DNA of 64,000 bases, taken from positions 101,181 through 165,180 of the forward strand of contig CAVYSR010000024.1 in assembly GCA_963771225.1 (NCBI GenBank), in the 5' to 3' direction. The position numbers were made by a program, and so were the translations under genes. The stretch comes from an uncultured Pseudomonadota bacterium (GTDB lineage Bacteria > Pseudomonadota > Alphaproteobacteria > Rhizobiales > Xanthobacteraceae). Position 1 is the stretch's first letter. Every line of letters starts with the position of its first letter. Shown here in pieces: positions 1 to 24,831 of the stretch. Under the pieces are notes generated by a model that was not told the origin of the DNA, ran no database searches, and saw only the letters and a list, made by a program, of their open reading frames with translations.

Positions 1-1
1 T

Positions 2-1455: not shown

Positions 1456-1505
1456 GCGCCTGTCCCCTTCGAGACGGCAATCTAGGGTCCGGCAGGCATC
1501 GGCTT

Positions 1506-2769: not shown

Positions 2770-2943
2770 GCAGCATTCCGGCAGGCGATCGCAACCGTCC
2801 ACATCTTCATGCTTGCCGCATTCCTTCCCATCAATAAGGGATGATTTTAATAATCACTCTAACCGTTGCCCCGGTTTCATGCCTTGCGTTAGCGCAATAA
2901 ATCCCCATCGCTGGACGCTATCATAATGTTCGGATGACTTCGC

Positions 2944-4521: not shown

Positions 4522-4585
4522 GGGTGCGGTTATGGCGATATCCTCGCTTCGGGAAGGGGAAGGCGCCGAGCCAAGCCGTGGCGGC

Positions 4586-5409
4586 CTAATGAGACATGAG
4601 ACAACAAAGCGGACACGACTCGAGAATGCTCCGCGTCATGCCGCCGAAGACCCATTCCCCCACCCGGCTGTGGCCATAGGCCCCGGCCACCAGCAGGTCA
4701 GCGTCCTCGTCGAGGGCAAACTGGACCAGATGATCCGCGTCAGATCTGTCGCGATGGACAATTGGCCGAGGATCGGCGCGATCCCGTGCCGCCCCAGGTA
4801 GCGGACGACATCTTCGGTCCGGGCTAACGCATTTCGTTCATCGTCCCGGCTGCAGACTTCGACAACCGAAACGCGTTTGGCGGCGCGTAAAAACGGAATC
4901 GCATCAAGCGTGGCCCGACGGGCCTCACGAGTATCCTTCCAGGCCAAGACGACATGTTCGGCCCGTAACGAGCCGGCGCCCGGGGCTACGAGTAGCGCAG
5001 GCCGGCCTAGTTTTAGAAGCACTTCGCGTGGATATAGGTTTCGGTAATTGTCATAACGGCCCTGGGCCTCCTGCCCGAGAATGACAAGATCGGCGGAGCG
5101 GGATTCACGCGTCAACGCCTCGGCCGGAAAGTCCAGCGCGGTTCGCCATTCGACGTCCGGACGATCCGCACCGACAACACCGCGGAACCAATCTCCTCTT
5201 TTGACCAACCCTGCCTGCATCTGCTTGATGTCGTCTTCCGTTGCTTCCTCGATGATCACGCCTTCGGCAACGAACGGCGGAGGAACGGCGCGGGCCGAGA
5301 TCCCAATCAGCGCTGCATCGAACTTCGCCGCAAGATCTGCGGCTATTCGAACTCTTTGTTCAGGAATGCCGTCGGCATCGACATACACCATCAGGGCTGC
5401 ATAAGACAT
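4586..5409 (-). CDS. Universal stress protein, one frameshift near 4760
   Basis: MSYAALMVYVD...VVLAWKDTREARRA, continuing in another frame as DLLVAGAYGHSRVGEWVFGGMTRSIL...LMSH-stop. Confidence 0.85.
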
Positions 5410-5466
5410 GAGGCCGCTCCTTCTCAAAGGAAAGCCTAAAATTGCCCTGCTTGGCGGATGCCGTTA

Positions 5467-5480
5467 TTGATGCATCGCAA
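5467..5480. promoter_or_regulatory. FixK/FNR-type box between the divergent USP and VIT1 genes
   Basis: TTGAT-GCAT-CGCAA. Confidence 0.7.
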
Positions 5481-5561
5481 ATCGCCTTCGGCATAGCGGT
5501 GCTAATTGGACAGGCCGCCTCGAACGAGCCCGTTTACGCGTCGGCGGCAAGGTGCTACAGA

Positions 5562-6257
5562 ATGCCTACAGTTCCGCATATCGAAAAGCATTTCACCGCC
5601 ACGGAAACCGTACGCGATGTCGTGATCGGCATGGCCGACGGCCTAACCGTTCCTTTCGCCTTGGCGGCGGGTCTGGCGGCCGCGGTCTCCTCGACCAAAG
5701 TTATCGTGACCGCCGGCCTCGCGGAAATCGTCGCGGGCGCGATCGCGATGGGTCTTGGGGGCTATCTCGCGGCCCGGACAGACGCCGAACATTACGGGTC
5801 GGAGCGAGCTCGAGAGAACTGGGAAATCGACAATCTCCGCGAAAAGGAAGTGCAGGAGGTGACAGAGATATTCCGCGGCTACGGTTTGGCAGGGCGAGCG
5901 CTGAAAACGGTGGTCACCGCGGTAACGGCGGACCGTAAACGCTGGCTGGACTTCATGATGCGCTTTGAGCTTGGGCTTGGAGAGCCGGATCCGAAACGCG
6001 CGCCGATCAGCGCCGGGACGATTGCGGCCTCGTATTTCGTCGGCGGGCTCATTCCGCTTACTCCCTATATTCTGACGTCGAGCATTTCGGAAGCATTCGC
6101 ATATTCGGTCGGGTTTACGGGCGTGGCTCTTCTCGTATTCGGCGGCATCAAGGGGCATTTCACCGGCATCAACAAGGCAAAATCCGCCGCACAGACGCTG
6201 CTGGTAGGCGGGCTTGCCGCCGCGGCCGCCTATGCGCTGGCGCATGCCTTCGGTTGA
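5562..6257 (+). CDS. VIT1/CCC1 family Fe/Mn transporter
   Basis: RDVVIGMADGLTVPFAL, AGAIAMGLGGYLA, FMMRFELGL motifs. Confidence 0.9.
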   Translation: MPTVPHIEKHFTATETVRDVVIGMADGLTVPFALAAGLAAAVSSTKVIVTAGLAEIVAGAIAMGLGGYLAARTDAEHYGSERARENWEIDNLREKEVQEVTEIFRGYGLAGRALKTVVTAVTADRKRWLDFMMRFELGLGEPDPKRAPISAGTIAASYFVGGLIPLTPYILTSSISEAFAYSVGFTGVALLVFGGIKGHFTGINKAKSAAQTLLVGGLAAAAAYALAHAFG

Positions 6258-6292
6258 TTTCGTCACCGGCGCTTGCCGCCTCCACGCCGTAA

Positions 6293-6306
6293 TTGATGCA
6301 GGTCAA
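6293..6306. promoter_or_regulatory. FixK/FNR-type box
   Basis: TTGAT-GCAG-GTCAA about 60 nt upstream of ATG 6366. Confidence 0.75.
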
Positions 6307-6365
6307 TGCGGATCGACCTGCGAAGTGTCTATGGATTAAATCTTACCTGCTCTGAGGCTGGTCCC

Positions 6366-6882
6366 ATGAAAGATATCACAGCCGAGACGCCTGTGCGGCC
6401 GGACATGATCTGGGATTTGCTAATCCGGCTATCGGGCATCGCACTATTCGTCCTGCTGGTCATCGCCTATTCCACGGGCGAGGAATTTCCGCATACCCAC
6501 GTCATGATCGGTTACGCCATCGCGGTCCTGGTGGCCGTTGGCATTTTTTGGGCGATCGTCAGACCGCACCACGTCCAGTTTCCGCCGACCGTCTATAGCC
6601 CGCGCGGAATCAAGGAGCTGTTTCAAAGCGCCGACCGGGTTCCCAAAACACTCGCATCGGTGTTCTCTGATCCTGGCAGCGCTGCCCTTGTGCGCGTTAA
6701 TCCTGATGTTGCTGACACATACGCTGTGGGGCACCGCCTGGATCGACGAGATGCACGAGGTGGTCGCTTATTTCGCGGTGGGATTGGTCGCCTTCTATGT
6801 TGCGATGGTGGGCATCGCCAGCAGCGGACACATCGAAGATCGCATGCGGAAGACGTTCGGCGGAAACAAGCATCCATACTAA
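6366..6882 (+). CDS. Degenerate cytochrome b/b6-like membrane protein, frameshift near 6665
   Basis: IWDLLIRL...THVMIGY...WIDEMHEVVAY; two frames join to a four-TM protein. Confidence 0.6.
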
Positions 6883-7555
6883 GTCAGGGCGCCCGCTCAC
6901 TTGAATAAGGCGCCCGCCATCATGGCGAGGCAGGTGACAAGCCCGATTGCAGGTATCCATATCGGAACGGTGACGTGCGGGTTGTCGGACCGCACAGCGC
7001 GGTAGCTCAGCCGCAGCAAGCGCAAGATTGACCAGCGCGAACACCGCCAGCGTCACCAGCGAGGTTGCTTCCGCAAGCGGCGTCAGCGGCACGAACAGCG
7101 CCAGCGGAACGACCAGCGCGGCAATACAGGCGGTAGCGACCAGCGGCGTGCCGGTGCGGCGATGCACCCGCGCGAAGATCGCCGGCAACTCGCCTTCTCG
7201 CGCCAGCCCGTAGACGACCCGCGCCGCCATCGTCATCTGTGCAAGGATCGTGTTCAGCGTCGCCACGATAGCGATCGCGCTGATCGTCGCCGGACTGACG
7301 CCGGCGACCTCGCGAAAGACCAGGCTGAGCGGCGCCGACGAGGACGACAATCGCTCGACCGGCACGGCGCTGACGGCGACCGCTGCGACCAGCGACATAC
7401 AGGACCGTCGAGATGCCAAGGGTCAGCACCATGGCGCGGGGGATGTCGCGGTGCGGGACCTTCGCCTCCTCCACGACATTGGCCAGATCCTCGAAGCCGA
7501 TGAAGGCGAAGAACCCGAGCAGGCTGCCGAAACCGATGCCCCATCGAAGGGTCAC
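6879..7555 (-). pseudogene. 3' fragment of an APC-family amino acid permease
   Basis: FFAFIGFEDLANVVEEAKVPHRDIPRA...ARVVYGLAREGELP...TGTPLVA split over several frames, with no N-terminal half. Confidence 0.75.
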
Positions 7556-7589
7556 TCTTCATTGAACATTCGAAACCACGCGCCGATGC

Positions 7590-8150
7590 TTACGGCTTGC
7601 CGCCAGGAAGCATGCGAATGAGCGTATTGTCGCGAAAAACAAAGTGATGAATCAGTGCGGCGACGCCGTGAAAAATCGCAACGATCACAAGTGCGTTGGC
7701 GAGTATTTCGTGGATTTCCGTTACATTATGCGCAAAGGCGCGGTCGCCTATCCAAGGTGATGCGATTTCGCCGAGTCCGAACAACGGCAGCGCGTTTCCG
7801 CGCGCAAACTGCGCAACGATGCCGGCGATCGGAACCGCAACCAGCAACGCGTAAAGCGTGTAATGCGCAAGACGCGCCGTCGGATCGGCGAGGGCGCCCA
7901 GCCATCTGCCGAATTCGTTCGGCTCGGGGGGCGGCGGCGGCTCGGCCACCCGCCAGACCAACCGCATGACGAGCGCCATCAGGATGACCAGACCCGCCGA
8001 AATGTGGAAAAGGAGTCCCGTATCGCGCGCGGCTCCCTTGGGCAGATCGTCGCCGAAGGTTCCCAGCGTCCACGCCAGCATTACCAGGATGACCGTTAGC
8101 CAGTGCAGGAACCGGGGAGCCAGTCCATACCGTTGGACGGGATTGGTCAT
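7590..8150 (-). CDS. Cytochrome b561 (YceJ/CybB-like)
   Basis: RFLHWL, FHISAG, LAHYTLY, HEILAN, HGVAALIHH haem-ligating His pattern; AGGAGG RBS. Confidence 0.9.
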   Translation of the reverse strand: MTNPVQRYGLAPRFLHWLTVILVMLAWTLGTFGDDLPKGAARDTGLLFHISAGLVILMALVMRLVWRVAEPPPPPEPNEFGRWLGALADPTARLAHYTLYALLVAVPIAGIVAQFARGNALPLFGLGEIASPWIGDRAFAHNVTEIHEILANALVIVAIFHGVAALIHHFVFRDNTLIRMLPGGKP

Positions 8151-8387
8151 TTGTATGATAGTCCTCCTGGTTGGTCCACTCTTTGTCGCAGCGTCAATGC
8201 GAAAACAGGATCGGCAGCAGGTTAAACCCACGACGATTTCGAGCTTTCGATTCACGTCAAAGCTGAACGACGTTCGACCGAAGCCAATTCAGGCGCTCCG
8301 CGATACCCAAAGTTTCGGCCTCAACTCGGCGTGGCTATGGGCACGGGCTTGCGGCCGATATCGAGAGTGTCCAGGGCGGAACTCGCG

Positions 8388-8612
8388 ATGAGCGATGGGC
8401 TTCATCCGAAAATCTCTGGAAGTGGGTTGATGCGCGAGAAGGATTCGAGAATCGGCTGCCCATATCTCGGCACGGACCCGCCGCATGTCGCACCGGTCGA
8501 TGGCCAGGAATATGCTGCGCACAACCATGGCCCCAAACACGCGGGATCGGACGTGAAGAAGGTGAAGCGCGTGGCCATACGGGATGACCCAGAGTCTCGC
8601 GAAGCGAGCTAA
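8388..8612 (+). CDS. Small hypothetical protein
   Basis: 74-aa ORF MSDGLHPKISG...; no recognisable family. Confidence 0.35.
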   Translation: MSDGLHPKISGSGLMREKDSRIGCPYLGTDPPHVAPVDGQEYAAHNHGPKHAGSDVKKVKRVAIRDDPESREAS

Positions 8613-8788
8613 GCGCCCCCGGTTCCCACATGGGGCCCGCAAAATAAAAAATCCGGGAATCCGTGACTTCCGTTGCTGGCACCAAGCAGAAGTCGATCCG
8701 TCGATCATTGATGTCCGTTGGCGGGGGTAAAGCCGAAGTGAGAACAGTTACCGATTGAAACGGATTCCAAGAAAGCCATAATTACTTT

Positions 8789-9217
8789 ATGGCGCAACTC
8801 CCAACCAGCGGGGCAACCGTGGCTACCCCGCATCGCGATGAAGCGGACCTTCAAAAGGTGCTGGCTGAATTGCGCCCTGAAGGGGACTTCGGCGAGTCCG
8901 ATACGACGGTGTTTTACAGACAGTTAGGGAGAATCATTGGTCAGTGGTCGGCTGACGACAATCGGCTGGACATTGCACCGCTGCTCAAGACCTTCTCGGT
9001 GATGGGCAGGGAGCTGAACAAATCAGCCAAGGTCCTCAGCGGACACGAGACCGGCCTTCGCGAGATCCAAGATATCGAGATCGTTTCACAGCTGGCGATG
9101 ATTCTCGCACTGGACCCCGGGGTCGGTTCGCGCCCGCAAGCCGATGAGCTGATAAATCGTTTCGGGGTGACGCCTCCAAGCTGGCTCACGCCTGTCTCGT
9201 GGCCGCCCACGACCTGA
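8789..9217 (+). CDS. Hypothetical protein (possibly truncated or frameshifted)
   Basis: 142-aa ORF with natural helical composition following an AT-richer spacer. Confidence 0.45.
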   Translation: MAQLPTSGATVATPHRDEADLQKVLAELRPEGDFGESDTTVFYRQLGRIIGQWSADDNRLDIAPLLKTFSVMGRELNKSAKVLSGHETGLREIQDIEIVSQLAMILALDPGVGSRPQADELINRFGVTPPSWLTPVSWPPTT

Positions 9218-9359
9218 AGCGAACGGTGGGAGAATATGGTCCCTCACCTCGCCGCGCGCAACGCGGATCGGCGGCTCTAAGAATTTTCGTGCGTCACCAC
9301 AAAAAGACTTTTGCAACAATATCTGCCGGAAGCGGAAGTGCCGCACTCGAAGCCCTAAG

Positions 9360-9662
9360 TCACCGCACTCGTGCGTCGTCGACCCACCACGTCTTTCCGC
9401 GATGCGTGACAACGGCATAGCCGTCGTCGTCTTCGTTGACGACATCGACTTTCGCGCCTTGTGGCAGCCGAATGGGGCAGTTCTTGTTGATCTGCCCGCC
9501 TTTCGGCGTCAGTGACTGCATCGTATATTCGTGCGCAGCGGCCCAACTCGTGCAGGCATAAGTTTCGGCGCTGATCACCCCGGGCCGGGCGTCAGCGGGC
9601 GTCGTGGTGCGGATTGCGAGAACGACCACGAGAACGCTGACGTTCAACAATACCCTGGTCAT
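9360..9662 (-). CDS. Small secreted protein with SH3-like C-terminus
   Basis: Hydrophobic signal MTRVLLNVSVLVVVLA, two Cys, LPQGAKVDVV...GYAVVTHRGKTWWV; GGAGG RBS. Confidence 0.6.
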   Translation of the reverse strand: MTRVLLNVSVLVVVLAIRTTTPADARPGVISAETYACTSWAAAHEYTMQSLTPKGGQINKNCPIRLPQGAKVDVVNEDDDGYAVVTHRGKTWWVDDARVR

Positions 9663-9726
9663 GCTCGCCTCCAGTATTTCGACTTTGTGCCAAAAGCGCC
9701 GTTTCGTCCCCTGCCAGCCACTTCGC

Positions 9727-10671
9727 CTATCGTCCCATGGCGGCGGCCAGCAGCGCCTGCGCCTGCTTTGTTGCCTCGGCAAACGATGGCTGCTGTGTCG
9801 CACGCCGGCTGAAGCAGCGGCTGTACGCGGTTTCACCCTGCTGGCGCAGGTCGCCCGACTTCTTGGCGTCGCCATCCTCGGCCCTCTTATTGTATTCAGC
9901 TCGCATCGCAATACAGGCCGGAATCTGCACGTTGGGCTCGATTGATCCATAGGCGATATACACCTTGCCGTTCGCAAGTGCGGCAACGAACACCTCATCT
10001 GCCGCGTCGGGAATGGTGTCCTGGGTTCGGCCTGCCAAGGTCGCATAGGCAAATGTGGCGGAGGCCGGCTTGGTAATAGGCAGAGAGTTGAAGTTCACCA
10101 CCGCAGACCCGCCCGCGGCCGCAATCGCCTGGGTATAGAAACTTTCGTCCTTGAGTGCTGTCCCGATCTGTTGCGGCACGTCCTTGCTGTCCTTGCCCCA
10201 CCAGCCCTTGTGGGCGCGCAGCCAGCTCACGAGCAGTGTCTGCGTCGTCACGACGATACGGGCCTTTGGCTCGACATACTTGCCGTCGGCGCCGTTCTGA
10301 CCAGCTTTCTCTCCGTTTTTCCCAACGTTGGCGTCGAACTGCAGGCCATCGAGCATGCCAAATCCTTCATCCCCCTTGGAGAGCGTTTCGACATTGAGCG
10401 CGGCCGGTCCGAAGCCGGGGTAAGCGGGTTCGCCCAGTATAGCGCTCAATTGTGCCTTGAGATCGGCGCGCGCGGCGTCCTCAGCCTTCTGCACCGCGTC
10501 ATCGAACTTTCCGGCGTCGTATTCCTTCGAGAATTTCTGGATCGCCTTATCCCGCGCAGCGATGTAGCGATCCTCAAGCGACGGGCTGAGCGGCGCGGCG
10601 GCAGCATTTGAGAGCATCGAACAACAAGCGGCCGCCAAAAGTCCGAAGGTAATGGGTAAGGTCCTGTACAT
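9727..10671 (-). CDS. Secreted hypothetical protein
   Basis: 314-aa ORF with N-terminal signal peptide and GC3-biased codons. Confidence 0.75.
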   Translation of the reverse strand: MYRTLPITFGLLAAACCSMLSNAAAAPLSPSLEDRYIAARDKAIQKFSKEYDAGKFDDAVQKAEDAARADLKAQLSAILGEPAYPGFGPAALNVETLSKGDEGFGMLDGLQFDANVGKNGEKAGQNGADGKYVEPKARIVVTTQTLLVSWLRAHKGWWGKDSKDVPQQIGTALKDESFYTQAIAAAGGSAVVNFNSLPITKPASATFAYATLAGRTQDTIPDAADEVFVAALANGKVYIAYGSIEPNVQIPACIAMRAEYNKRAEDGDAKKSGDLRQQGETAYSRCFSRRATQQPSFAEATKQAQALLAAAMGR

Positions 10672-10754
10672 GTGAGGTGGTCGTTCGCGCGGGCGGCTGG
10701 GTTCAAGGCGAAGCTTGCCCTAACCGGCGAGCTAAACGAAAAAGCGTTCGCTTT

Positions 10755-10860
10755 GGTCATTCGCGTCACCTGGACCGTGTGCCGATGACTTCCGGTCTTC
10801 TCCGATTGGTAGACATTCTCAGTGCCTGTCAGCATGTCCGAAAGTGCCAAAACCGGAAGT
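10755..10860. repeat. Dispersed intergenic repeat (related copy at about 22541-22649)
   Basis: AGACATTCTCAGTGCCTGTCAGCATGTCCGAAAGTGCCA (10811-10849) versus AGACATTTTCAGTGCCCGTCAACATGTCTCAAACGTGCCA (22599-22638). Confidence 0.65.
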
Positions 10861-11007
10861 CGCCAAATTATTCAAATACCCCGTCGGCGCAGACGAGCAG
10901 ACTTGACGCGACAGGGCGGCCGAGAGGCTTGGCCGCCTCCTCCCCTCCCAGCAACCTCGTCGAAATTTCGACGAGGTTGCTTCGCGACCGCAGTTGCCGC
11001 GATCGAA

Positions 11008-11021
11008 TTGATCTATCGCAA
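11008..11021. promoter_or_regulatory. FixK/FNR-type box
   Basis: TTGAT-CTAT-CGCAA about 80 nt upstream of ATG 11103. Confidence 0.7.
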
Positions 11022-11102
11022 CGACGTCCTCCTCTTCGGCGCGCAAATTGTCATCAGTTTCTGCTGGAGATTCGGAGGTATCCGGTGCCTACCCAAACCA
11101 AC

Positions 11103-11510
11103 ATGCGAGACAGGTCGCATTCCATCGTCGAACGATTGACCCATACGTTCGGCGACTGGCTCCAGCACCGGCGGGAGCTCAACGAGATGCGCCAGCTCAC
11201 CACGTCAGAGTTTGACCGCATCGCAGCCGATTTGCGGGTTTCCCCCGCCGATCTGAATGAATTGGTTCGTCTCGGGCCGCATGCTGCGGATGAATTGCCC
11301 AAATTGCTCAACGCCCTCGGCATCGACGGCAACGATCTCGCGCGCGTCGAACCACTCGTGTTGCACGACATGGAGCGCGTCTGCGCCTTGTGTGAACACA
11401 AGCGCGAATGCGACCGCGATCTCGCCGCCGGCACTTCTGCCGAGCACTATCAGGGATATTGCCTCAACGCGCCCACGATCGAACAATTGGGGCATGAGGC
11501 TAAGAAATAA
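11103..11510 (+). CDS. DUF6455-like four-Cys protein
   Basis: DMERVCALCEHKREC...YCLNA; N-terminal RRELNEM...FDRIAADL. Confidence 0.75.
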   Translation: MRDRSHSIVERLTHTFGDWLQHRRELNEMRQLTTSEFDRIAADLRVSPADLNELVRLGPHAADELPKLLNALGIDGNDLARVEPLVLHDMERVCALCEHKRECDRDLAAGTSAEHYQGYCLNAPTIEQLGHEAKK

Positions 11511-11655
11511 AGATTTAGGTTAGACCAGCGCCGCCTCAGGGTCGTCAGTCAAGTAGTTATCGACAAATCGCAGCCGTCTGCCACAACCCCTTCGCCGCAG
11601 TCTCATATCGGCAGGTCCGAAAAGTGAAATCGCCGCACCTCATTCCGACCCGGAT

Positions 11656-11669
11656 TTGATCTGCCGCAA
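11656..11669. promoter_or_regulatory. FixK/FNR-type box
   Basis: TTGAT-CTGC-CGCAA about 55 nt upstream of hemerythrin ATG 11724. Confidence 0.7.
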
Positions 11670-11781
11670 AAGCTGATACCGCGTCGCGGACAATATGTTA
11701 TGGTTCACTGTATGGAGCGCCGCATGATCATTGAGCGCTTATCCCAAGAGCATCGCAATATTGAGAAGCTGCTTGCCATCC

Positions 11782-12932
11782 TAGTGGTCTCTGCCTAACA
11801 TAAGAAGTCCCGTTCGGGATTCCATTTGGTTGGCGCGCGTGCAAGTCTTAGGCATGCGCGCCGGGATTTCCATCAAGATCACACGACCAGATCGCCATCG
11901 GCTTGAAGCGATCACCAGGGACCGTAACGCCTCGCAGAAGCACGTTTGGCGAGCAAACATTGTGCTTCTGAGCGCCGACGGTGTCGGGACCAACGCGATC
12001 ATGCGCCAGACCGGCACGTCGAAGACCTGCGTCTGGCGCTGGCAGCAGCAATTCATGGAAGAGGGCGTCGACGGCCTCCTGCGAGACAAGACGCGCCCCT
12101 CGCGGGTTCCCGGGCACGGCCCGGAAGTGGCCGAGCGTGTGGTCGCGCTCACGTTGGCCGACCCGCCGACCGAGACGACCCATTGGACGGCCGATCTGAT
12201 GGCGCGGGCGAGCGGAATAAGTGCCAGCGCTGTCCGTCGCATCTGGAAAGCGCACGGGCTCCAACCTCACCGGTATCGGCAGTTCAAGCTCTCGAACGAT
12301 CCAAACTTCGTCGCCAAGCTGCGCGACGTTGTCGGGCTCTATGTCGATCCGCCGGCCCACGCCATCGTGCTGTCGGTCGACGAGAAGAGCCAAATTCAAG
12401 CCCTCGATCGCACCCAGCCAGGGCTGCCGCTGAAGAAGGGACGGCTCGGAACCATGACACACGATTACAAGAGGCACGGCACCACGACACTGTTTGCCGC
12501 CCTCAACGTCCTCGATGGCACGGTCATCGGCCGCAACATGCAGCGTCATCGTCATCAGGAACTCATTCGATTTCTCAACGACATCGAGGCGGAGGTTCCG
12601 GTCGGCAAGATCATCCACGTCATTCTCGACAACTATGCAGCTCACAAACACCCCAACGTTCGTGCCTGGCTCAATCGCCACCCGCGTTTCGTTTTCCACT
12701 TCACACCAACCTCGTGCTCCTGGCTCAACGCTGTCGAGGGGTTCTTCGCCAAGCTCAGCCGACGTCGCTTGAAACGTGGTGTCTTCCGCTCCGTCGTTGA
12801 TCTCCAGGCGGCCATCAACCGCTTCGTCGCTGAGACAAACGCCGATCCGAAGCCATTCACGTGGACCGCCAACCCTGACAAAATCATCGCCGCCGTCAAG
12901 AGAGGGCACCAAGTGTTAAATTCCATCCACTA
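11782..12932 (+). mobile_element. IS630-family insertion sequence
   Basis: CTAG at both ends (11781-11784, 12930-12933); imperfect terminal IRs TAGTGG-N8-TAACA; intact transposase inside. Confidence 0.92.
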
Positions 12933-12933
12933 G
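11854..12933 (+). CDS. IS630-family DDE transposase
   Basis: VDEKSQIQAL, THDYKRHGTTTLFAAL, ILDNYAAHK, FTPTSCSWLNAVEGFF motifs; stop codon lies in the right target site. Confidence 0.95.
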   Translation: MRAGISIKITRPDRHRLEAITRDRNASQKHVWRANIVLLSADGVGTNAIMRQTGTSKTCVWRWQQQFMEEGVDGLLRDKTRPSRVPGHGPEVAERVVALTLADPPTETTHWTADLMARASGISASAVRRIWKAHGLQPHRYRQFKLSNDPNFVAKLRDVVGLYVDPPAHAIVLSVDEKSQIQALDRTQPGLPLKKGRLGTMTHDYKRHGTTTLFAALNVLDGTVIGRNMQRHRHQELIRFLNDIEAEVPVGKIIHVILDNYAAHKHPNVRAWLNRHPRFVFHFTPTSCSWLNAVEGFFAKLSRRRLKRGVFRSVVDLQAAINRFVAETNADPKPFTWTANPDKIIAAVKRGHQVLNSIH

Positions 12934-13504
12934 AGCTGGAACTTGAGGTCTTCGACCGGGGAGACCGCCCCGACTACGAAGTTATTCGCGCTGTTATCAG
13001 CTATTTCGAAGTCTACCCGGAGGTGTATCACCATCCCCAGGAAGACCTGGTCTTTGCCAAGCTAAGAACGCGCGATCCGGTTGCGGCTGCGAAGGTCGGT
13101 GATCTCGCTCGCGAGCACCACAAAGGGGCTGAACGCTTGCGCCGGGTCGCTCACGCGGTCGAGAACGTGCTCGCGGATGGTGAAGTTCTTCGGCAAACTG
13201 TCGATACCATTGTTCGCGATTTCATCGCGCACGAGCGGCACCACATGATGATGGAAGATCGAGATTTCTTTCCTGCCGCGCTTAAGGCCCTTAAGCCTGA
13301 AGATTGGACGGAGATCGCTTCGGCCGTAACCGGTCATAGGGACCCGCTGTTCAGCGATGTCACCGAAGAGCGGTTCGATGCGCTACGCTCACATATTTCG
13401 CGGCTGGAGCAAGAGGCCGAAGCCGAACGAAAGTAGGCGCGCTTTCATCCGCAGCGCTTGGTTGTGCTCTGCGGCGAGCACCGGTCACTATGTGGGGCGC
13501 TGCC

Positions 13505-14077
13505 ATGATCATTGAGCGTTTGAGCCAAGAGCATCGAAATATAGAGAAGCTACTCACAATCTTTGAGCGGGAACTTAAGGTTTTCGACCGCGGCGTCCGC
13601 CCCGACTTTAAGGTTATTCGCGCGCTCATTAGCTACTTCGAACTTTACCCGGAGGTTTATCACCATCCCCAGGAAGACTTGGTCTTTGCCAAGCTGAAAA
13701 TTCGCGACCCGGCTGCGGCTGCGAAAGTCGGTGATCTCGCTCGCGAACACCAAAGAGGGGCGGACCGTTTGCGCCGCGTCGCTGATGCGGTCGACAGTGT
13801 TCTCGCGGGCCGTGAAATCCCTCAGCAAGATGTGGATTTCATCGTTCACGATTTCATAGAGCACGAGCGGCACCACATTACGATGGAAGATCGCGATTTT
13901 TTTCCTGCCGCCCTAAAGGCTTTTAAGCCTCAAGATTGGATGGAGATCGCTTCGGCCTTGACCAATCCTGAGGATCCGCTGTTCAGCGAGGCGGCCGAGG
14001 AGACGTTTGACGCGCTACGGGCACGCATCTTGCAGCTGGAACAAGACGCCGGAGCTGAACGAAAGTACCCGATATAA
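13505..14077 (+). CDS. Hemerythrin (HHE) domain protein, intact paralog
   Basis: EHRNI...HHPQED...REHQ...HHITMED His/Glu pattern. Confidence 0.88.
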   Translation: MIIERLSQEHRNIEKLLTIFERELKVFDRGVRPDFKVIRALISYFELYPEVYHHPQEDLVFAKLKIRDPAAAAKVGDLAREHQRGADRLRRVADAVDSVLAGREIPQQDVDFIVHDFIEHERHHITMEDRDFFPAALKAFKPQDWMEIASALTNPEDPLFSEAAEETFDALRARILQLEQDAGAERKYPI

Positions 14078-15518: not shown

Positions 15519-16116
15519 TTATTTGACAAAGCTCAGATACGAGGCGAGCGCCTCGATTTCATTCGGGCCAAGATGGCTCGCAACCATCGGCATCGGAGAT
15601 TCCGTACCCGAATGATAGCCTTGGCCCCATTGCTCAAGCCGACCCTTCAAATAGAAATAGGCCAGACCCCCCAGGCGAGGAATATCGCGCACGCCCTCGG
15701 CGTTCGGGCCATGACAGGCGTAGCAGGACACGATATTGGCTTCCGGGATTCCCTCCAGGTAGATCGTTCTTCCCCGCGACGCGAGCGTGCTGTCGCCGTC
15801 ATTGGCGGCTTTCGGCGGGATCGTGGCAAAATAACTCTGCCAGATCGCGTGCCGTATGGGGATCGAGGGCTGCGACCGCGCTCCACATGTATTGCTTCGA
15901 AAATGGATTATCCCGCGCGTGCGCGCGAAAGCTCCTGATCTGACTCATGATGTATTGCGGCCTCTGTCCAGCCAGCCGCGGCGCTACTGTATAACCCTGC
16001 GCCCCCGTTCCGTGACACCAGGTACAGTTGCGAACGGCGGGGCTCTCGCCGGCCCATGAAGAAGCGCTGGAGGCGAGGATCGCCATGATCGCCATTTTCA
16101 ACCCGATGCGCTTCAT
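15519..16116 (-). CDS. Dihaem cytochrome c4/c553-like, frameshift near 15833
   Basis: Signal peptide, CTWCH...PRLAGQ, then CYACH...PRLGG...MPMVA in the next frame. Confidence 0.85.
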
Positions 16117-16176
16117 GACCCCAAGCTTTCGCGCTTCATGTACCCACCGACATGTCGGCGTATGAGATGGCTGCAC

Positions 16177-16821
16177 TCACTGCAGATAACTGACATAGGC
16201 CGCGACCGCTTCAATCTGTGACCGGGTCATGTTGTGTGCCGTTGGCGCCATGATGGCGGATGTATCAACCGCCGAGCCTTGACCTCGCTCCGTCTTCCAA
16301 CCCGTCAACTGGCCTACAGTGTATGCGTAGACCTGACCCGCAAGTCGCGGAATTTCGTTTTGACCCTTGCCCTCCGTGCCGTGACAGGCGGAGCAAGCGG
16401 GAACGTTGGATTCGGGAAGGCCTTCCTCGTAGATTCGCTTCCCGGTCGCGATCGATCCCCTTGGCGCTCCGCCGAACGGTTTGGGATTGAGACCTCTAAA
16501 ATGCGTGGCCAGCGCCGTCAGCATCGACGGGCTCAGCACATGCGCGACGTTGAACATGATCGGATTGGTCCGCCTGCGCTCGATGAAGGCCCGCAGCTGA
16601 GCCTCGATGTATTCGGGCTGCTGCCCGGCCAGCCGCGGCATCGGAAAGTATCCGAGATACCCCTGGCCCGACAGCCCATGGCAGGTTTTGCAATATTCCA
16701 GCTTGGCCTCCAGCCCGCCTTGTCTTGCGGGGACGCCGCTGTCCGCCGCGTGACCCGTTGCGGAAAAAGCCAGCGCCAGAATTACTGCCTGCAAAATCAG
16801 CCGCACACCGAGGACTTTCAC
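16177..16821 (-). CDS. Dihaem cytochrome c4
   Basis: Signal peptide, CKTCH and CSACH, two PRLAGQ motifs; GTG start after GAGGAGG. Confidence 0.9.
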   Translation of the reverse strand: MKVLGVRLILQAVILALAFSATGHAADSGVPARQGGLEAKLEYCKTCHGLSGQGYLGYFPMPRLAGQQPEYIEAQLRAFIERRRTNPIMFNVAHVLSPSMLTALATHFRGLNPKPFGGAPRGSIATGKRIYEEGLPESNVPACSACHGTEGKGQNEIPRLAGQVYAYTVGQLTGWKTERGQGSAVDTSAIMAPTAHNMTRSQIEAVAAYVSYLQ

Positions 16822-16880
16822 GATCCGGCCTCCTCGTCTCTCGCCAGACGCATCCGCTTCATGTGAACGGGCTCCGGCCA

Positions 16881-17657
16881 TCACCAACCGGACCCCCAGA
16901 TGTGAAAGTTCAACCCGACCTTGACGACCTGAACGGTCTGCTTGACGTCGACGACACCTGAGAAGCCGTTGATCGAGTCGGCCATCAGGATGCCGCCATG
17001 CCCGAATGAATAGTAATCATATTCGACATTGACGGACCAATGACGCGCGAAAGCCCAATCCACGCCGCCGCCTACGATCCAGCCGTAGCGATTGTCCAGC
17101 CCTTGAAAGTTATAAGGAAGACCCGTGAATGTGCCGCTGACATTGTATTTGTCTCCGGCCAATGCGACGCCCGCTTTGGTGTAAAGCAGGACACGGTCGA
17201 AGGCGTAGCCGACCCGCCCGGTCACGCTCGCAAGAAAGTCGGTATTCGCCTGCACGATCCCGATGTCGGGATTGCCGAGCGGGAGCCCGACGGACGTGCT
17301 GCCTTTCATGGTGGAGCCCGAGGCAGAGCCTTCGATACCAACCACCATGAAGGAAGCGAACTCATAGTCGCAACCGATCTGCCCGCCGATCACGGCGCCG
17401 GTCGGCGAGGTGCTTGCGGTGGTGACGCCGGTTGTCGCACCGGGGAAGATAAATGAATCCTGCACGAGCTGCGCCGGATCGGTCATGTCCTTGCGGGCAG
17501 CCCCGCCGCCGAGATGTCCGCCGACATAGCAGCTTGTCCAGCTGAACTGCGGCGCTGCATAGGGCGCCTCCGGCTTCATCGGCAGGTCCGCTGCGATCGC
17601 GGGCGCCGAGAGGGTCACGGCGAGCACTGCTGCGTGGGCGAAAAGAAGTTTTCTCAT
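16881..17657 (-). CDS. Outer-membrane beta-barrel protein (Omp25/RopB-like)
   Basis: Signal + ADLPMK...FSWTSCYVGGHLG, GGQIGCDY, GRVGYAFDR, VKVGLNF. Confidence 0.88.
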   Translation of the reverse strand: MRKLLFAHAAVLAVTLSAPAIAADLPMKPEAPYAAPQFSWTSCYVGGHLGGGAARKDMTDPAQLVQDSFIFPGATTGVTTASTSPTGAVIGGQIGCDYEFASFMVVGIEGSASGSTMKGSTSVGLPLGNPDIGIVQANTDFLASVTGRVGYAFDRVLLYTKAGVALAGDKYNVSGTFTGLPYNFQGLDNRYGWIVGGGVDWAFARHWSVNVEYDYYSFGHGGILMADSINGFSGVVDVKQTVQVVKVGLNFHIWGSGW

Positions 17658-17687
17658 CAGACCATCTCCGTATGCGGACTCGTCCGC

Positions 17688-19228
17688 CTACATCGCAAAC
17701 CAGGCATGGAGGAACAGGGTATTGTTGTCGTGGGCTGCGACCGTGGTGCCGTTTAGCTTGTTGTAATAGGTGTATTGCAGGCCGATGCGGGCGTTGAACC
17801 ACGGCCAGCCGATCATCTTGCTTGCCCCGAACGGGATGTAGGCGATCTCGGTCATAAAGCCGTTGGTGTTTGGGGTGGAGGCAGCGCCCGTGACGGGGTC
17901 GGCCCCATACAGGCTCATGTCGGCGGTACCCCATTGATTGAAATATTGCCCGGTGAAAACGACCCTGTTGTCGGCGCCGTAGGCAAACGAGGCCTGCAGC
18001 TTGAGGCTGTTGAGCGTGTTGGTCGGATTGGACGCACTCGCGTTGAGGAAGCTCGCATCCAATTGCTCGAACTCGCGAATATAACTGGCGCGCAACGTGA
18101 GCCAGTAATTGTCGCCTTGAAACTGATATTGAGTGTCGAAACCGATATCGGTGAATCTGTCGGTTTGTGGAAACACGGAGGTCGACCAGGTCGCGAAGCT
18201 TGTATCGACCCAGGGATGGACGTTGAATTGCGCTCCGAATGCGCCGATCATCCACGTATTCCTGCCCCAGTGCGGCTCCAGCGCAATGCGCCAGTAGGGC
18301 GCAACGCTGCCGAGTGGACCGGGCTCACCGAACGGATCGGTACCCAGCGCGTTCTGCTGGCTGAAGCCGAGGGTCTTGTAGCCGGTGAATTCCAGATAAA
18401 GCAGGTCGTTGATAAAGGTGTAGGCGCCGACGCCGCCGACATGCGCTGCAAATGCGCCCTCGATCGCCGTAGGATGACCCTGCGGGCCAAGGATCGTCGA
18501 AACGGCGTAAGGGAAGGACCAGGCCGGTGTGGTGTTCCACACATCCTGCACAGTCGGGTTGTTGTTGGCCGTGATGCCGTAGATCAGGTCGAGCGATCCG
18601 ATGCGGGCAGTGCTGGCATAGCGAACGTCGGTATTATCCCACGTCCAGGTATGACCGAACGGATCGCCAAAACCTCCGGGGGGCACCGCGTTATAGGTGA
18701 CTTGCGCGAAGGCACCGATATTGTCGGTGATCGCTCCGCCGTAGAACGCGCTGAACGGCGAGAGCACGACATTGTTGTTCGCGCTATAGGGGTCCGTGCC
18801 AGTTAGCGGCGCCTGGGTGTGAGTGTAGCCGACGATCGTCATCATCGAGACCGGCGGGACATAATCCTTGTCAGCCTCGGGAGTCGTCGAAGTCGTCGGC
18901 AGCGATTTAACATAGCCAAGCATCTTGTCGTACTCGGCGCGCGCGTCCTGAGCGCCTTTGGACGAAAACGGCGTCGTCGGAATTCGCCGCCGCCGGTCGT
19001 ATAGCCGAGCAGCTTGAACCTGCGGCCATATGGCGTCAGCGCGGGAAAATCGGTGTGACAGGTACCGCAGGGTTGTCCCGTCTGCCGCGCGAAACTCGGC
19101 AGGGCTTGCGCCGGCGACGCAAAGCCGATCGTCAGGAAACCGATCGCGAGGGCAACAAGCGCAGCAGCAGCCAACAGCCTGCAGTTGCCGAAACGTGGGG
19201 TAGCGGAATGTCCGCCATCGCCTTGCAT
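17688..19228 (-). CDS. cyc2: Cyc2-like monohaem cytochrome c-porin fusion, one frameshift near 18978
   Basis: Signal peptide then ALPSFARQTGQPCGTCHTDFPALTPYGRRFKLLGY (Cyc2 N-terminal signature), followed by an aromatic-rich beta-barrel ending NNTLFLHAWFAM. An alternative start at 19291 is possible. Confidence 0.82.
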
Positions 19229-19370
19229 CGCGCGCCATTTCGTTGTTTGCGACGCTTCGTGCCGCCGCACGAAATCTGAATCCGCCTGCAAAGCAACGAT
19301 AGTCGAAGAGTCGCGAGCGCAGCTAAGACAATAGCCGCGATGAATCAGATTTCACGATTGAGAGACATTT

Positions 19371-19388
19371 ATGCAACTATAGTTGCAT
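19371..19388. promoter_or_regulatory. Perfect 18-bp palindrome, putative operator
   Basis: ATGCAACTATAGTTGCAT in the divergent cyc2/c4 intergenic region. Confidence 0.55.
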
Positions 19389-19521
19389 GCACATAATTCA
19401 ACGTTCGGCGAAATATCTATATTTCGTCGTCCGTCCGATCCGATGAAGGCAGACGATGGCCGATTTGCCCGGCCGTCTGCCCACTGGCGCATTAACTGGA
19501 CCGACCTTTGCGGAAAGTGAA

Positions 19522-19535
19522 TTGATCTAGATCAA
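19522..19535. promoter_or_regulatory. Perfect FNR/FixK box
   Basis: TTGAT-CTAG-ATCAA about 76 nt upstream of ATG 19612. Confidence 0.85.
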
Positions 19536-19611
19536 ATCGAGCAGAGAAAAAATGAGCTGGATCGAACAGCCCGGCGAGGCGTAACGTGGCCATCATCAAG
19601 AGGGCGGGCTA

Positions 19612-20254
19612 ATGCGCATTCTATCGGTACTGCTGACAGCAGCCTTTTTGATTGCCGTCTCCGCGGCGACAGAAGCGGAAGACAAAGCCAAGGCTGACTT
19701 CTCGCAAGCAGGAGCTTCAGGCCAAGATCGCCTATTGCAAAACCTGTCATGGGGTGTCGGGGCAAGGTTTTCGTGGATCGTATCCGATGCCGCGGCTGGC
19801 AGGACAGCAACCCGAGTATCTTACCAATCAGTTGCAGGCGTTTATCGATCGCAGGCGCACAAACCCTGTGATGTTTAACGTGGCGCATGTGCTGAGCCCG
19901 GCGATGCTGAAGGCACTGGCCGAGCATTTCAAGGACCTCAACCCTAAACCGTTGGGAGGGGGCCCGAAGGAACTCGCGGCCACGGGAAAGAAAATCTACG
20001 AAGATGGCGTCCCCAGCGCCGAGGTTCCTCCGTGCGCTACCTGTCACGGACCGGAAGCAAAGGGCGCCGATGCATTCCCTCGTCTGGCAGGACAGCTCAA
20101 TGACTATGTCGCAAAGAAACTTCTGAACTGGAGCAAGGAACGCGGTCAGGATCCGGCCAAGCCCGACAACTCGGCCATCATGCAGCCGATCGCGCATGGC
20201 CTGACCGAGGATCAGGTGAATGCCGTCGCAGCGTATCTCAGTTATCTCGAATAG
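19612..20254 (+). CDS. Dihaem cytochrome c4, frameshift near 19700
   Basis: Signal MRILSVLLTAAFLIAVSAA joins the frame containing CKTCH and CATCH; paralog of 16177-16821. Confidence 0.88.
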
Positions 20255-20411
20255 TTCCGCGTACCGAACCACAACGCTGCGAGGTTAATTGCAGACATCG
20301 ATGATGTGGAATGGCGTTTGGACTCCCGCAGATAACCCGCCGAGCCAACAATCGACTGCAAGAAGCCAAAAGAACTGCAATTAGTTGCCCTCTCACAGCA
20401 GGATGAAAATC

Positions 20412-20690
20412 ATGACTGCACCAACAGGAATTTCCAGGCGACAGGCGTTGACAATCGCGGCCGGCGTGGCCGGAGCCTCGGTCGCGAGCGCCGCAGCGGT
20501 CGTCGGCACATCGACGCCCGCGCAGGCGGCTAAGGCGTCGCAGAAAATCGTGAAGTATCAGGACACGCCGAAGGGAGATCAACGCTGCGAAAATTGCGTG
20601 CAGTTCGAAGCCCCGTCGTCCTGCAAAACCGTGGATGGAGCGGTTTCTGCGCAGGGCTGGTGCATGGTCTATGCGAAGAAGCCGGCATAA
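20412..20690 (+). CDS. High-potential iron-sulfur protein (HiPIP)
   Basis: Tat signal ISRRQAL; KYQDTP...CENC-x9-C-x11-WC four-Cys HiPIP pattern. Confidence 0.9.
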   Translation: MTAPTGISRRQALTIAAGVAGASVASAAAVVGTSTPAQAAKASQKIVKYQDTPKGDQRCENCVQFEAPSSCKTVDGAVSAQGWCMVYAKKPA

Positions 20691-21411: not shown

Positions 21412-21425
21412 TTGATTTGGATCAA
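21412..21425. promoter_or_regulatory. Perfect FNR/FixK box
   Basis: TTGAT-TTGG-ATCAA 60 nt upstream of ATG 21486. Confidence 0.85.
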
Positions 21426-21485: not shown

Positions 21486-21917
21486 ATGCCAGCCTCATAC
21501 GATCACCACTGGTCTATTTTCAAGGTTTGGAAAGTTTGGAAAGCATCCTGCTTGGGCTTCGTTGATTCGGATGTTTGTGGCGAATACGAACTGAAGCGCA
21601 GAGCCGATTACTTGGGTATTCCTGTTGCCCAGCTACGTTGGGTTTCGAGTTATAGACCCGACCCAATCAGTCTCTTGGAGCGCCGCATGGAAGCGCTTTT
21701 GCTCAATCCGGACGAAGTCGCACACATCGAGCCCTTATCGGTCCGGGAACTTCGGCATCGTTGCGTAAAGTGCGAGAAGCGTAAACAGTGCGCGTTAGAT
21801 CTCGCAGACGAATTCGCCGATCCCGGCTGGCAGTCTTGGCGGGATTACTGCCCGAATGCCGCGACACTCACGATGCTAAGCACCTTCCAAAGTTGCTCGA
21901 AAATTTGCTCATTGTAA
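21486..21917 (+). CDS. DUF6455-like four-Cys protein
   Basis: CVKCEKRKQC...WRDYCPNA; GGAGGAGG RBS. Confidence 0.75.
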   Translation: MPASYDHHWSIFKVWKVWKASCLGFVDSDVCGEYELKRRADYLGIPVAQLRWVSSYRPDPISLLERRMEALLLNPDEVAHIEPLSVRELRHRCVKCEKRKQCALDLADEFADPGWQSWRDYCPNAATLTMLSTFQSCSKICSL

Positions 21918-23380: not shown

Positions 23381-24022
23381 ATGATCATGCTGGATCAAAT
23401 GAATGCTGTCCCGACGCCCCATAAACGGATGCCCTGGAACAAGGGCAAGCTGACCGGGGCAAAGCGGCCGCTGCGACCAAAACACGTCTGGTCAATCCGA
23501 ACAAAACTTCAGATTGAGGGCCGCGTTCGCGACCTCGCCATGTTTCAATCTGGCAATCGACAGTAAACTTCGAGGGTGTGATGTCGTGGCGATCCGGGTC
23601 GAGGATGTCGCTGCCGATGGCTACGCGGCGGACCGCGCAACCGTCCGACAAAAGAAAACTGGACGGCCTGTTAGGTTCGAATTGAGCGAACAGACCCGCC
23701 AGGCCATCGATGATTATCTGAGGGCTGCCACAAGACGACTGGCGAGTTCTTGTTCGCGGGTCGTCGCGGTGCGAACGCCAGCATGACCACCCGCCAATAT
23801 GCGCGGCTCGTTTCCGAGTGGATCGGCAGCATCGGGCTGGACCCGAGGCTTTTTGGGACGCATTCGCTTCGACGCACAAAGGCGACCCTGATCTATCGGC
23901 GGACGGGAAATCTCAGGGCCGTCCAGCTCCTGCTCGGGCATACGAAGATCGAAAGCACGGTCAGGTATCTCGGCATCGAGGTCGATGACGCCTTGGAAAT
24001 AGCGGAACAAGTTGATGTCTGA
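23381..24022 (+). pseudogene. Tyrosine recombinase/integrase, two frameshifts
   Basis: PWNKGKL...FNLAIDSKLRGCD...HSLRRTKATLIYRRTGNLRAVQLLLGHTKIESTVRYLG across three frames. Confidence 0.85.
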
Positions 24023-24756: not shown

Positions 24757-24831
24757 GGACGCATTGCCCAGCGGGAGAGCGCTCCCTTCACACAAGAGAG
24801 GTCCAAGGTTCGATCCCTTGTGCGTTCACCA
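24757..24831 (+). tRNA. tRNA-Val(CAC), degenerate (possible pseudo-tRNA)
   Basis: GGACGCA/TGCGTTC acceptor stem, CAAGG-TTCGATC-CCTTG T arm, encoded CCA; one C-A mismatch in the D stem and two in the anticodon stem. Confidence 0.75.

What the first reader, a model, noticed from the sequence alone, without database searches (positions are those of the whole stretch)
15519..20690. Cyc2-like cytochrome-porin with three dihaem c4 cytochromes, HiPIP and an OMP: candidate electron-uptake or Fe(II)-oxidation module
Seen: repairing one frameshift joins ALPSFARQTGQPCGTCHTDFPALTPYGRRFKLLGY to a beta-barrel of about 430 aa. It lies in a same-strand run with an Omp25-like barrel and two c4 genes, and a third c4 plus a Tat-exported HiPIP are transcribed divergently. 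Known: Cyc2 of Acidithiobacillus ferrooxidans is an outer-membrane iron oxidase with this N-terminal motif and works with the dihaem c4 Cyc1. HiPIPs (Iro, PioC) are carriers in Fe(II)-oxidation chains. Inference: an outer-membrane-to-periplasm electron conduit on an accessory island of a Bradyrhizobium-like organism. The electron donor is unproven.
Basis: partly seen in the sequence, partly recalled or inferred. Interest (0 to 1): 0.82.

Follow-up and report, generated by a model that had tools for sequence, protein, structure and literature searches.

The report
Cyc2 haem-porin electron-uptake gene block
A soil Bradyrhizobium-type genome carries an outer-membrane haem-porin of the Cyc2 iron-oxidase family with three two-haem cytochromes, an iron-sulfur carrier and a small barrel protein, which together likely take electrons from dissolved iron at low oxygen; the core gene set is already published for Bradyrhizobium, so this is a new example rather than a new system.

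Summary
Observation confirmed. All six genes are there. Three are frameshifted, not one (cyc2, c4-B, c4-C). These are probably assembly errors: near-identical relatives are intact and this assembly has about 0.28 frameshifts per kb of conserved coding DNA. The intact 97%-identical homologue has every sequence feature that defines Cyc2 and models as a 16-strand porin. The three c4 proteins match Acidithiobacillus c4 best, and the HiPIP matches PioC.

Not new: He et al. 2017 describe Cyc2 + HiPIP + three periplasmic cytochromes c in a pyrite-enrichment Bradyrhizobium. This scan also noted the set before in other genomes.

Added here:
- The core is c4, cyc2, omp, c4, c4, in 27 of 201 genus genomes.
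- The 8-strand OMP and the c4 type track cyc2 exactly (27 of 27 versus 0 of 27).
- HiPIP is optional (12 of 27).
- A FixK2-type box lies in the divergent promoter.
- The block sits on a tRNA-Val island and does not track RuBisCO.

Most likely role: low-oxygen Fe(II) oxidation as supplementary energy (about 0.5). Donor, cluster assignment and OMP role are untested. Interest 0.3.

The parts
17688..19228 (-). cyc2: signal peptide + monohaem c domain + linker + 16-strand porin; one frameshift near 18978
   Evidence: 95-97% identical to intact P0001; AlphaFold2 model of P0001 pLDDT 83, 16 long strands; folds like 16-strand porins including OprP and OprO
16881..17657 (-). 8-strand outer-membrane barrel (Pfam OMP_b-brl) of a subfamily found only with cyc2 in the genomes tested
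   Evidence: PF13505 E 3.6e-12; model of its L058 orthologue has 8 long strands, pLDDT 88.5; close orthologue in 27 of 27 cyc2-positive and 0 of 27 cyc2-negative genomes
16177..16821 (-). dihaem cytochrome c4 (c4-A), intact; start inferred from a GTG behind a GGAGG site
   Evidence: two CxxCH; best solved relative 1h1o, E 1.1e-29; 27 of 27 versus 0 of 27 genomes
15519..16116 (-). dihaem cytochrome c4 (c4-B), frameshift near 15835
   Evidence: one ORF with two CxxCH in 19 of 20 related loci; intact orthologue hits 1h1o at E 1.5e-23
19612..20254 (+). dihaem cytochrome c4 (c4-C), divergent from cyc2; frameshift near 19708, just after the signal peptide
   Evidence: 62% identical to c4-A; 1h1o E 2.5e-25
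20412..20690 (+). Tat-signal HiPIP, PioC/Iro type; accessory
   Evidence: PF01355 E 1.3e-5; best solved relative PioC 6xyv, E 5.5e-13; Iro model 71.3 bits, under its cut-off of 100; 12 of 27 cyc2-positive genomes
19522..19535 (.). perfect FixK2/FNR-type box in the divergent cyc2 / c4-C promoter region
   Evidence: fits the FixK2 consensus TTG(A/C)-N6-(T/G)CAA quoted in PMC5582078; TTGA-N6-TCAA in 9 of 21 orthologous intergenic regions versus a null mean of 0.18, maximum 2 in 500; only 35 strict boxes in the genome
19372..19387 (.). 16-bp palindrome about 150 bp upstream of cyc2; regulator unknown
   Evidence: only exact TGCAAC-N4-GTTGCA site in the genome; related palindromes at the same offset in 10 of the 20 related loci
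24757..24831 (+). degenerate tRNA-Val(CAC) copy: right end of a roughly 35-kb island whose left end is the intact tRNA-Val at G000:C24:90582-90656
   Evidence: 105-bp direct repeat at 90% identity, with lower GC inside both ends; integrase-like fragments at about 23514-24022 (judged by eye)

Best explanation
The block encodes a Cyc2-family haem-porin, three dihaem c4 cytochromes, a HiPIP and a small outer-membrane barrel, and it likely works as a low-oxygen electron-uptake chain that would oxidise dissolved Fe(II) at the cell surface for supplementary energy. Step 1 (inferred from the box): FixK2 switches on the divergent promoters when oxygen falls. Step 2 (fold predicted, activity inferred from family): Fe2+ enters the 16-strand barrel and reduces the single haem c on the periplasmic side. 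Step 3 (homology shown, partners inferred): the c4 proteins, helped by the HiPIP where present, carry electrons down to the cbb3 or aa3 oxidase or to NirK, and one c4 may feed bc1, as Cyc1 and CycA1 do in Acidithiobacillus. Step 4 (co-inheritance shown, role unknown): the 8-strand OMP is a fixed accessory of this Cyc2 clade. The three frameshifts in this copy are most likely assembly errors.
For: Every sequence criterion for Cyc2 in PMC8406198 is met. The fold matches OprP/OprO-type 16-strand porins, as reported for Cyc2. All three c4 types have the 183-aa cytochrome c-552/c4 1h1o as best solved relative; that 1h1o is the A. ferrooxidans c4 is recalled. The HiPIP is nearest to PioC. Gene order is identical in 20 of 20 related loci. 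The same set was found in a Bradyrhizobium from a pyrite-oxidising enrichment. One Cyc2 from each of the three clusters oxidises Fe(II) in vitro, and so does a further cluster 1 protein. FixK also controls the pio iron-oxidation operon of R. palustris. The genome has ccoN, an aa3-type COX1, cytochrome b of bc1, CcmF, napA, nirK and form I-type RuBisCO.
Against: No member of this clade was found to be assayed in the papers seen. Keffer et al. warn that function is uncertain over much of clusters 2 and 3. He et al. list over 100 homologues from bacteria not known to oxidise Fe(II), and say Cyc2 is not consistent among Fe-oxidising Bradyrhizobium. The block does not track autotrophy: RuBisCO in 19 of 27 carriers versus 21 of 27 non-carriers. 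Measured Cyc2 potentials span -130 to +560 mV, so the direction of flow cannot be read from sequence. The FixK box is missing in 12 of 21 loci. Three genes are frameshifted in this assembly.
Confidence: 0.5

Rival explanations
1. It is an outer-membrane electron conduit for another redox partner, not mainly for Fe(II): reduced humic quinones, sulfide-mineral surfaces, Mn or an electrode as donor, or export of surplus electrons at low oxygen.
For: It is common in soil heterotrophs with no known iron phenotype. It does not track RuBisCO. The best DNA-run holders are labelled soil metagenomes where a label is given. He et al. raise EET other than Fe(II) oxidation themselves. A Cyc2 at -130 mV exists.
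Against: Every Cyc2 assayed in the papers seen oxidises Fe(II). A single haem in a narrow barrel is predicted to need a small dissolved donor. The partners are relatives of the iron-chain carriers c4 and PioC. soxB is equally common with and without the block (25 of 27 each), so no sulfur link is shown.
Confidence: 0.25
2. It serves iron or redox housekeeping at low oxygen: oxidising excess Fe(II) to limit toxicity, or coupling oxidation to metal uptake through the small barrel, with no energy gain.
For: The island also carries two hemerythrin-domain genes, a cytochrome b561 and several FixK2-type boxes. The OMP is strictly co-inherited.
Against: Three dihaem carriers and a HiPIP point to a respiratory chain. 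No iron transporter was seen among the neighbours scanned.
Confidence: 0.12
3. This particular copy is a decaying pseudogene block on an island: the three frameshifts are real.
For: Three of six genes are broken. An IS30-type element lies just past c4-B, and an IS630-type element abuts a truncated hemerythrin gene nearby. The breaks are not in long homopolymers. No run of this exact strain was laid.
Against: 39 frameshifts in 138.6 kb of conserved genes elsewhere in this assembly (26 of 134 genes) predict 1.3 in this block, P(3 or more) = 0.13. No in-frame stops were seen and identity to intact homologues stays at 95-97%. Contigs from other runs carry the frame-keeping form at all three places.
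Confidence: 0.13

Closest known systems
Bradyrhizobium sp. Cyc2 cluster from a pyrite-oxidising enrichment (Percak-Dennett et al. 2017, as described in He et al. 2017, PMC5566968)
   Same: Cyc2 + one HiPIP + three periplasmic cytochromes c including Cyc1-like ones, in the same genus, with the same proposed relay.
   Different: The passage seen does not mention the 8-strand OMP, a FixK2 box, or that the HiPIP is optional. The original paper was not held, so gene order and identity could not be compared.
[quoted passage not shown]
   Same: Fused monohaem cytochrome-porin with dihaem c4 partners. A 514-aa Bradyrhizobium sp. STM 3843 protein is listed at 31.75% identity, E 6e-48, to A. ferrooxidans Cyc2; the 514-aa STM 3843 protein P0095 is 75.5% identical to P0001.
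   Different: No rusticyanin, Cup or coxBACD genes in the locus. Three c4 genes, a HiPIP and an OMP instead. A longer haem-to-barrel linker in the closest homologues (about 65-75 residues versus about 30 in many distant ones). Neutrophilic soil host.
Cyc2 cluster 1 (Mariprofundus Cyc2PV-1, Ghiorsea Cyc2TAG1_1)
   Same: Same N-terminal motif and 16-strand OprP-like barrel.
   Different: Twelve proteins of the CLSCH type (the PV-1 motif) match only the first 31-74 residues and sit on the other side of a 100/100 branch.
PioABC of Rhodopseudomonas palustris TIE-1
   Same: PioC-like HiPIP; FixK box in the promoter; same bacterial family (recalled).
   Different: No decahaem cytochrome and no large MtrB/PioB porin in the locus. 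PF11854 was not found in this 77.6%-complete genome.

Membership tests
Cyc2 fused cytochrome-porin (Keffer 2021) | AxPxFAR[Q/K][T/Y] motif just upstream of a single CxxCH | tested here: met
   window and 113 of 120 best homologues; one CxxCH each
Cyc2 fused cytochrome-porin (Keffer 2021) | PxL motif four residues after the CxxCH | tested here: met
   sequence shows P-A-L at that place
Cyc2 fused cytochrome-porin (Keffer 2021) | N-terminal signal peptide and length of at least 365 aa | tested here: met
   hydrophobic helix 14-36 ending in AQA, judged by eye (no SignalP); intact homologue is 513 aa
Cyc2 fused cytochrome-porin (Keffer 2021) | C-terminal 16-strand beta-barrel like OprO/OprP | tested here: met
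   16 strands in the model of P0001; OprP 2o4v Z 18.5, rmsd 3.8, 323 aligned; Foldseek E 3e-8
Cyc2 fused cytochrome-porin (Keffer 2021) | haem domain plugs the periplasmic mouth of the barrel | tested here: inconclusive
   model has no haem, pLDDT 60-77 over the haem domain, coordinates not available
Cyc2 fused cytochrome-porin (Keffer 2021) | match to a FeGenie Cyc2 HMM | not testable with these tools
   Pfam and NCBIfam returned no family for the barrel or for P0001; FeGenie models are not held
Cyc2 cluster 2 | groups with A. ferrooxidans Cyc2 in the reference tree | tested here: inconclusive
   A. ferrooxidans Cyc2 could not be retrieved. Indirect support: full-length similarity to proteins that He 2017 Table S2 lists at 31-34% to it, and separation from the CLSCH type
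Cyc2 iron oxidase (function) | haem is reduced by Fe(II) | not testable with these tools
   needs purified protein
Bradyrhizobium Cyc2 cluster (He 2017) | [quoted passage not shown] | tested here: met
   a CycA1 orthologue was not told apart from Cyc1
rus operon | rusticyanin, Cup and coxBACD beside cyc2-cyc1 | tested here: not met
   none among the 23 neighbouring ORFs scanned
PioAB / MtoAB | decahaem cytochrome plus large MtrB-type porin | tested here: not met
   at most two CxxCH per gene in the locus; PF11854 not found in the incomplete genome
Iro iron oxidase (NF041615) | score above the curated cut-off of 100 bits | tested here: not met
   71.3 bits; still a HiPIP by Pfam and PioC similarity

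The most novel reading that the evidence does not exclude
About one in seven Bradyrhizobium species-level genomes, mostly non-nitrogen-fixing soil lineages, carry a FixK2-controlled, two-barrel outer-membrane iron-oxidation unit. In it a dedicated 8-strand barrel with long surface strands is an unrecognised fifth component of the Cyc2-c4 chain, for example a surface scaffold that delivers organic-bound or mineral Fe(II) to the pore. That would make one of the commonest soil genera a hidden mixotrophic iron oxidiser, testable genetically in cultured strains.
Probability: 0.15. Interest if true: 0.65.

Novelty: new member of a known kind. Interest (0 to 1): 0.3.

Why it matters
Cluster 2-like Cyc2 proteins of ordinary soil bacteria have not been assayed in the papers seen, and whether they oxidise iron is an acknowledged open question. 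Bradyrhizobium is culturable and genetically tractable (own knowledge), and the block is intact in closed genomes such as G107 and G122, so a clean knockout test is possible. The conserved OMP and FixK2 box tell an experimenter what to delete and under which oxygen level to look. The system itself is already in print, and this copy is a frameshifted one from an incomplete assembly.

Tried and rejected
No candidate had the length and residues given in PMC13741234. The 150 proteins were not screened for it.
3. No sequence relative of Cyc2 or of the OMP among solved structures. The OMP fold search gave only generic 8-10-strand barrels.
4. Idea that the OMP goes with the long haem-to-barrel linker: not clean. 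OMP-bearing loci have long or medium linkers, but so do 11 without it, and 26 of 74 rows could not be measured.
5. Idea that the OMP binds haem like Bartonella Hbp / Brucella Omp31 (recalled): no invariant loop histidine in 19 orthologues. Dropped.
6. Links to autotrophy, sulfur oxidation or nitrogen fixation: RuBisCO 19 of 27 versus 21 of 27, soxB 25 of 27 versus 25 of 27, nifH 5 of 27 versus 10 of 27. narG, soxB and nifH were not found in this 77.6%-complete genome.
7. Contigs from 4 RNA libraries cover parts of all six genes at 85-99% likeness. These are relatives, no silent control was laid, and transcription is not shown.
8. The protein atlas gave no answer.
9. In the tree, 4 of 34 intended rows were dropped because the motif pattern did not find their start.
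10. Papers read in passages with nothing on this block: PMC13702023, PMC13594681, PMC13345007.
Full report
OBSERVATION. The window is G000:C24:101181-165180 of a 5.86-Mb, 26-contig genome, 77.6% complete. The nearest named homologues of its genes are from Bradyrhizobium. On the minus strand: cyc2 (19228-17688), an OMP_b-brl protein (17657-16881), c4-A (about 16821-16177) and c4-B (16116-15519). On the plus strand: c4-C (19612-20254) and a twin-arginine HiPIP (20412-20690). Each is single-copy in the genome, apart from distant OMP and c4 paralogues.

FRAMESHIFTS. There are three. The intact 513-aa homologue P0001 matches the two cyc2 frames at 95% and 97%. Against locus L058 (92% nucleotide identity) the net frame-changing indels are near 18978, 15838 and 19708. 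Contigs from other soil DNA runs carry the frame-keeping form at each place: in 4 of 4 runs for c4-B, 3 of 4 for cyc2 and 2 of 4 for c4-C. These are relatives at 90-99%, not the same strain. To get the background rate I compared 530 ORFs from 400 kb of the closed genome G107 with G000. Of these, 134 passed the filters (at least 70% identity and coverage), and 26 of them held 39 frameshifts in 138.6 kb. That predicts 1.3 in the 4.5 kb of this block, P(3 or more) = 0.13. Assembly error is the likelier cause, but real decay is not excluded: IS elements flank the block.

CYC2 IDENTITY. Keffer et al. (PMC8406198; passages and sections 12-13) define the family by a signal peptide, an AxPxFAR[Q/K][T/Y] motif before a single CxxCH, a PxL after it, at least 365 aa and a 16-strand barrel. 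The window sequence and 113 of 120 best homologues have the motif and one CxxCH. AlphaFold2 on P0001 with a 150-row alignment gave pLDDT 83, pTM 0.82 and 16 long strands from residue 127 to 512. The fold matches 16-strand porins, including OprP (Z 18.5, rmsd 3.8, 323 aligned) and OprO. Pfam, NCBIfam and PDB sequence searches returned nothing for it. The family is large: 2,766 clusters at 50% identity reach E 0.001.

WHICH CLUSTER. I could not obtain A. ferrooxidans Cyc2, so this is indirect. Supplementary Table 2 of He et al. (read whole) lists a 514-aa Bradyrhizobium sp. STM 3843 protein at 31.75% and Ralstonia solanacearum CFBP2957 at 33.7% to A. ferrooxidans Cyc2. P0001 is 75.5% identical to the 514-aa STM 3843 protein P0095 (matched by organism and length, not by accession) and 35% over 92% of its length to the CFBP2957 gene. 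Twelve proteins from one family of small genomes carry CLSCH or close variants, the motif given for Cyc2PV-1 (PMC13741234 passages). They match only the first 31-74 residues and are split from the window type by a 100/100 branch (30 of 34 rows kept). Cluster 2, defined by A. ferrooxidans (PMC7029218 passages), is therefore likely but not shown.

PARTNERS. All three c4 types have 1h1o as best solved relative (E 1e-29, 1.5e-23, 2.5e-25; c4-B through its intact orthologue in L016). That 1h1o is the A. ferrooxidans c4 is recalled; the call names it cytochrome c-552. The methionines aligned to its distal ligands are kept in all six haem sites, which suggests His/Met high-potential haems (inference). 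The HiPIP is nearest to PioC (E 5.5e-13) and scores 71 bits on the Iro model, under the cut-off of 100.

DISTRIBUTION AND GENE ORDER. Of 201 genus genomes, 30 match the barrel and 27 do so at E under 1e-100. In the family, 42 of 301 match at E 0.001, some only weakly. In 20 loci picked from the best hits, the order c4-C(reverse), cyc2, omp, c4-A, c4-B is the same in 20 of 20; a HiPIP is in 7 of 20. I then compared the 27 strong carriers with 27 of the 171 genomes that had no match. The c4-A type is in 27 versus 0. A close OMP orthologue beside cyc2 is in 27 versus 0; the best hit in a non-carrier is 42%, E 8e-48. The close HiPIP is in 12 versus 0. Among 80 GTDB loci, the OMP follows cyc2 in 28 of 34 with at least 50% identity and in 0 of 45 more distant ones (one locus too short; some loci appear to be the same contigs as above, so counts do not add). 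Kin are not independent, and a mobile block moves as a unit, so co-occurrence shows linkage and not interaction. The OMP models as 8 long strands with a short helix in loop 1 and has conserved loop motifs but no invariant loop histidine.

REGULATION AND ISLAND. A perfect TTGAT-N4-ATCAA box lies at 19522, 77 bp before the c4-C start and about 290 bp before cyc2. It fits the FixK2 consensus (PMC5582078 passages). TTGA-N6-TCAA occurs in 9 of 21 orthologous intergenic regions, against a null mean of 0.18. By position it may drive c4-C/HiPIP more directly than cyc2. FixK also activates pioABC in R. palustris (PMC3050613 passages). A 16-bp palindrome at 19372, unique in the genome, is partly conserved and unexplained. 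The block lies in a roughly 35-kb region bounded by tRNA-Val(CAC) and a 90%-identical degenerate copy, with lower GC at both ends. In other genomes the flanks differ.

METABOLIC CONTEXT. G000 has ccoN, COX1 genes, bc1 cytochrome b, CcmF, napA, nirK and RuBisCO. So microoxic or nitrite-linked electron sinks exist. Across genomes the block does not track RuBisCO (19 of 27 versus 21 of 27), and the closed genome G107 has the block with no RuBisCO match at E 1e-60. soxB is 25 of 27 in both groups; nifH is 5 versus 10. This favours supplementary energy in a heterotroph or mixotroph over obligate lithoautotrophy.

MECHANISM. Shown: genes, order, motifs, co-inheritance, boxes, island. Predicted: the two barrel folds. 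Inferred: FixK2 induction at low oxygen; Fe2+ oxidation at the haem; transfer through c4 and HiPIP to cbb3/aa3 oxidase, NirK or bc1. I give this 0.5, another donor or electron export 0.25, housekeeping 0.12, and a dead copy 0.13. Against the main reading: function is unverified over much of clusters 2 and 3; over 100 homologues come from bacteria not known to oxidise iron; measured potentials range from -130 to +560 mV (PMC13692758 passages).

PRIOR ART. He et al. [quoted passage not shown] That is this gene set. The primary paper (doi 10.1111/gbi.12241) was not held, and its figures may already show the OMP. I found no mention of the OMP or the FixK2 box in searches or in the passages read; the library lacks most subscription papers. 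Li et al. 2023 (PMC10654088 passages) also link Acidithiobacillus Cyc2 to Hyphomicrobiales homologues. Five earlier notes of this scan describe Cyc2 blocks in other genomes, three with three c4 genes; I reached the He 2017 passage independently.

VERDICT. Real, correctly read, and a new member of a known kind. The additions are a fixed OMP component, an optional HiPIP, a FixK2-type box and a prevalence of about 13% in the genus sample. Interest 0.3.

Noticed in passing
window 21412-21425 and 21486-21917 (+); 11008, 11656 and 10677-11510 (+): A second perfect FixK2-type box precedes a small DUF6455-like cysteine-motif gene; another DUF6455-like gene lies near 11.2-11.5 kb with boxes nearby. DUF6455-like genes recur beside cyc2 blocks in 7 of the 80 GTDB loci.
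   Followed up: partly
window 12930-14077 (+): Two tandem hemerythrin-domain genes (73% identical); the first lacks its start next to an IS630-type element. Close homologues lie near the cyc2 block in 5 of 20 related loci.
   Followed up: partly
window 1-12000: Eight of the window's 12 FixK2-consensus boxes fall in the first 21.5 kb beyond the one in the block's promoter (six of them below 12 kb), among genes that look by eye like a universal stress protein, a VIT1-type transporter and cytochromes b: a low-oxygen island.
   Followed up: no
G026:C3 and G026:C5; G091:C7 and G091:C290; G081:C89 and G081:C21: Some genomes hold two copies of the block or its core genes.
   Followed up: no
G017, G190, G196, G198 (second, more distant cyc2 matches at 34-51%): Several genomes carry additional, more distant Cyc2 types besides the block.
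   Followed up: no
L057:5839-9609 (Methylocystis sp. MJC1 plasmid): A plasmid-borne cyc2 homologue followed by three c-type cytochromes, with a Crp/Fnr regulator nearby and no OMP.
   Followed up: no
P0001 residue 130 (first barrel strand): A methionine kept in all 60 close and 89% of 90 distant homologues: a candidate for the unknown sixth haem ligand. EPR of a cluster 1 Cyc2 shows two axial ligands while models show one.
   Followed up: partly
whole assembly G000: About 19% of conserved genes tested carry frameshifts (26 of 134), napA among others is split; other broken-gene findings from this genome should be read with that in mind.
   Followed up: yes
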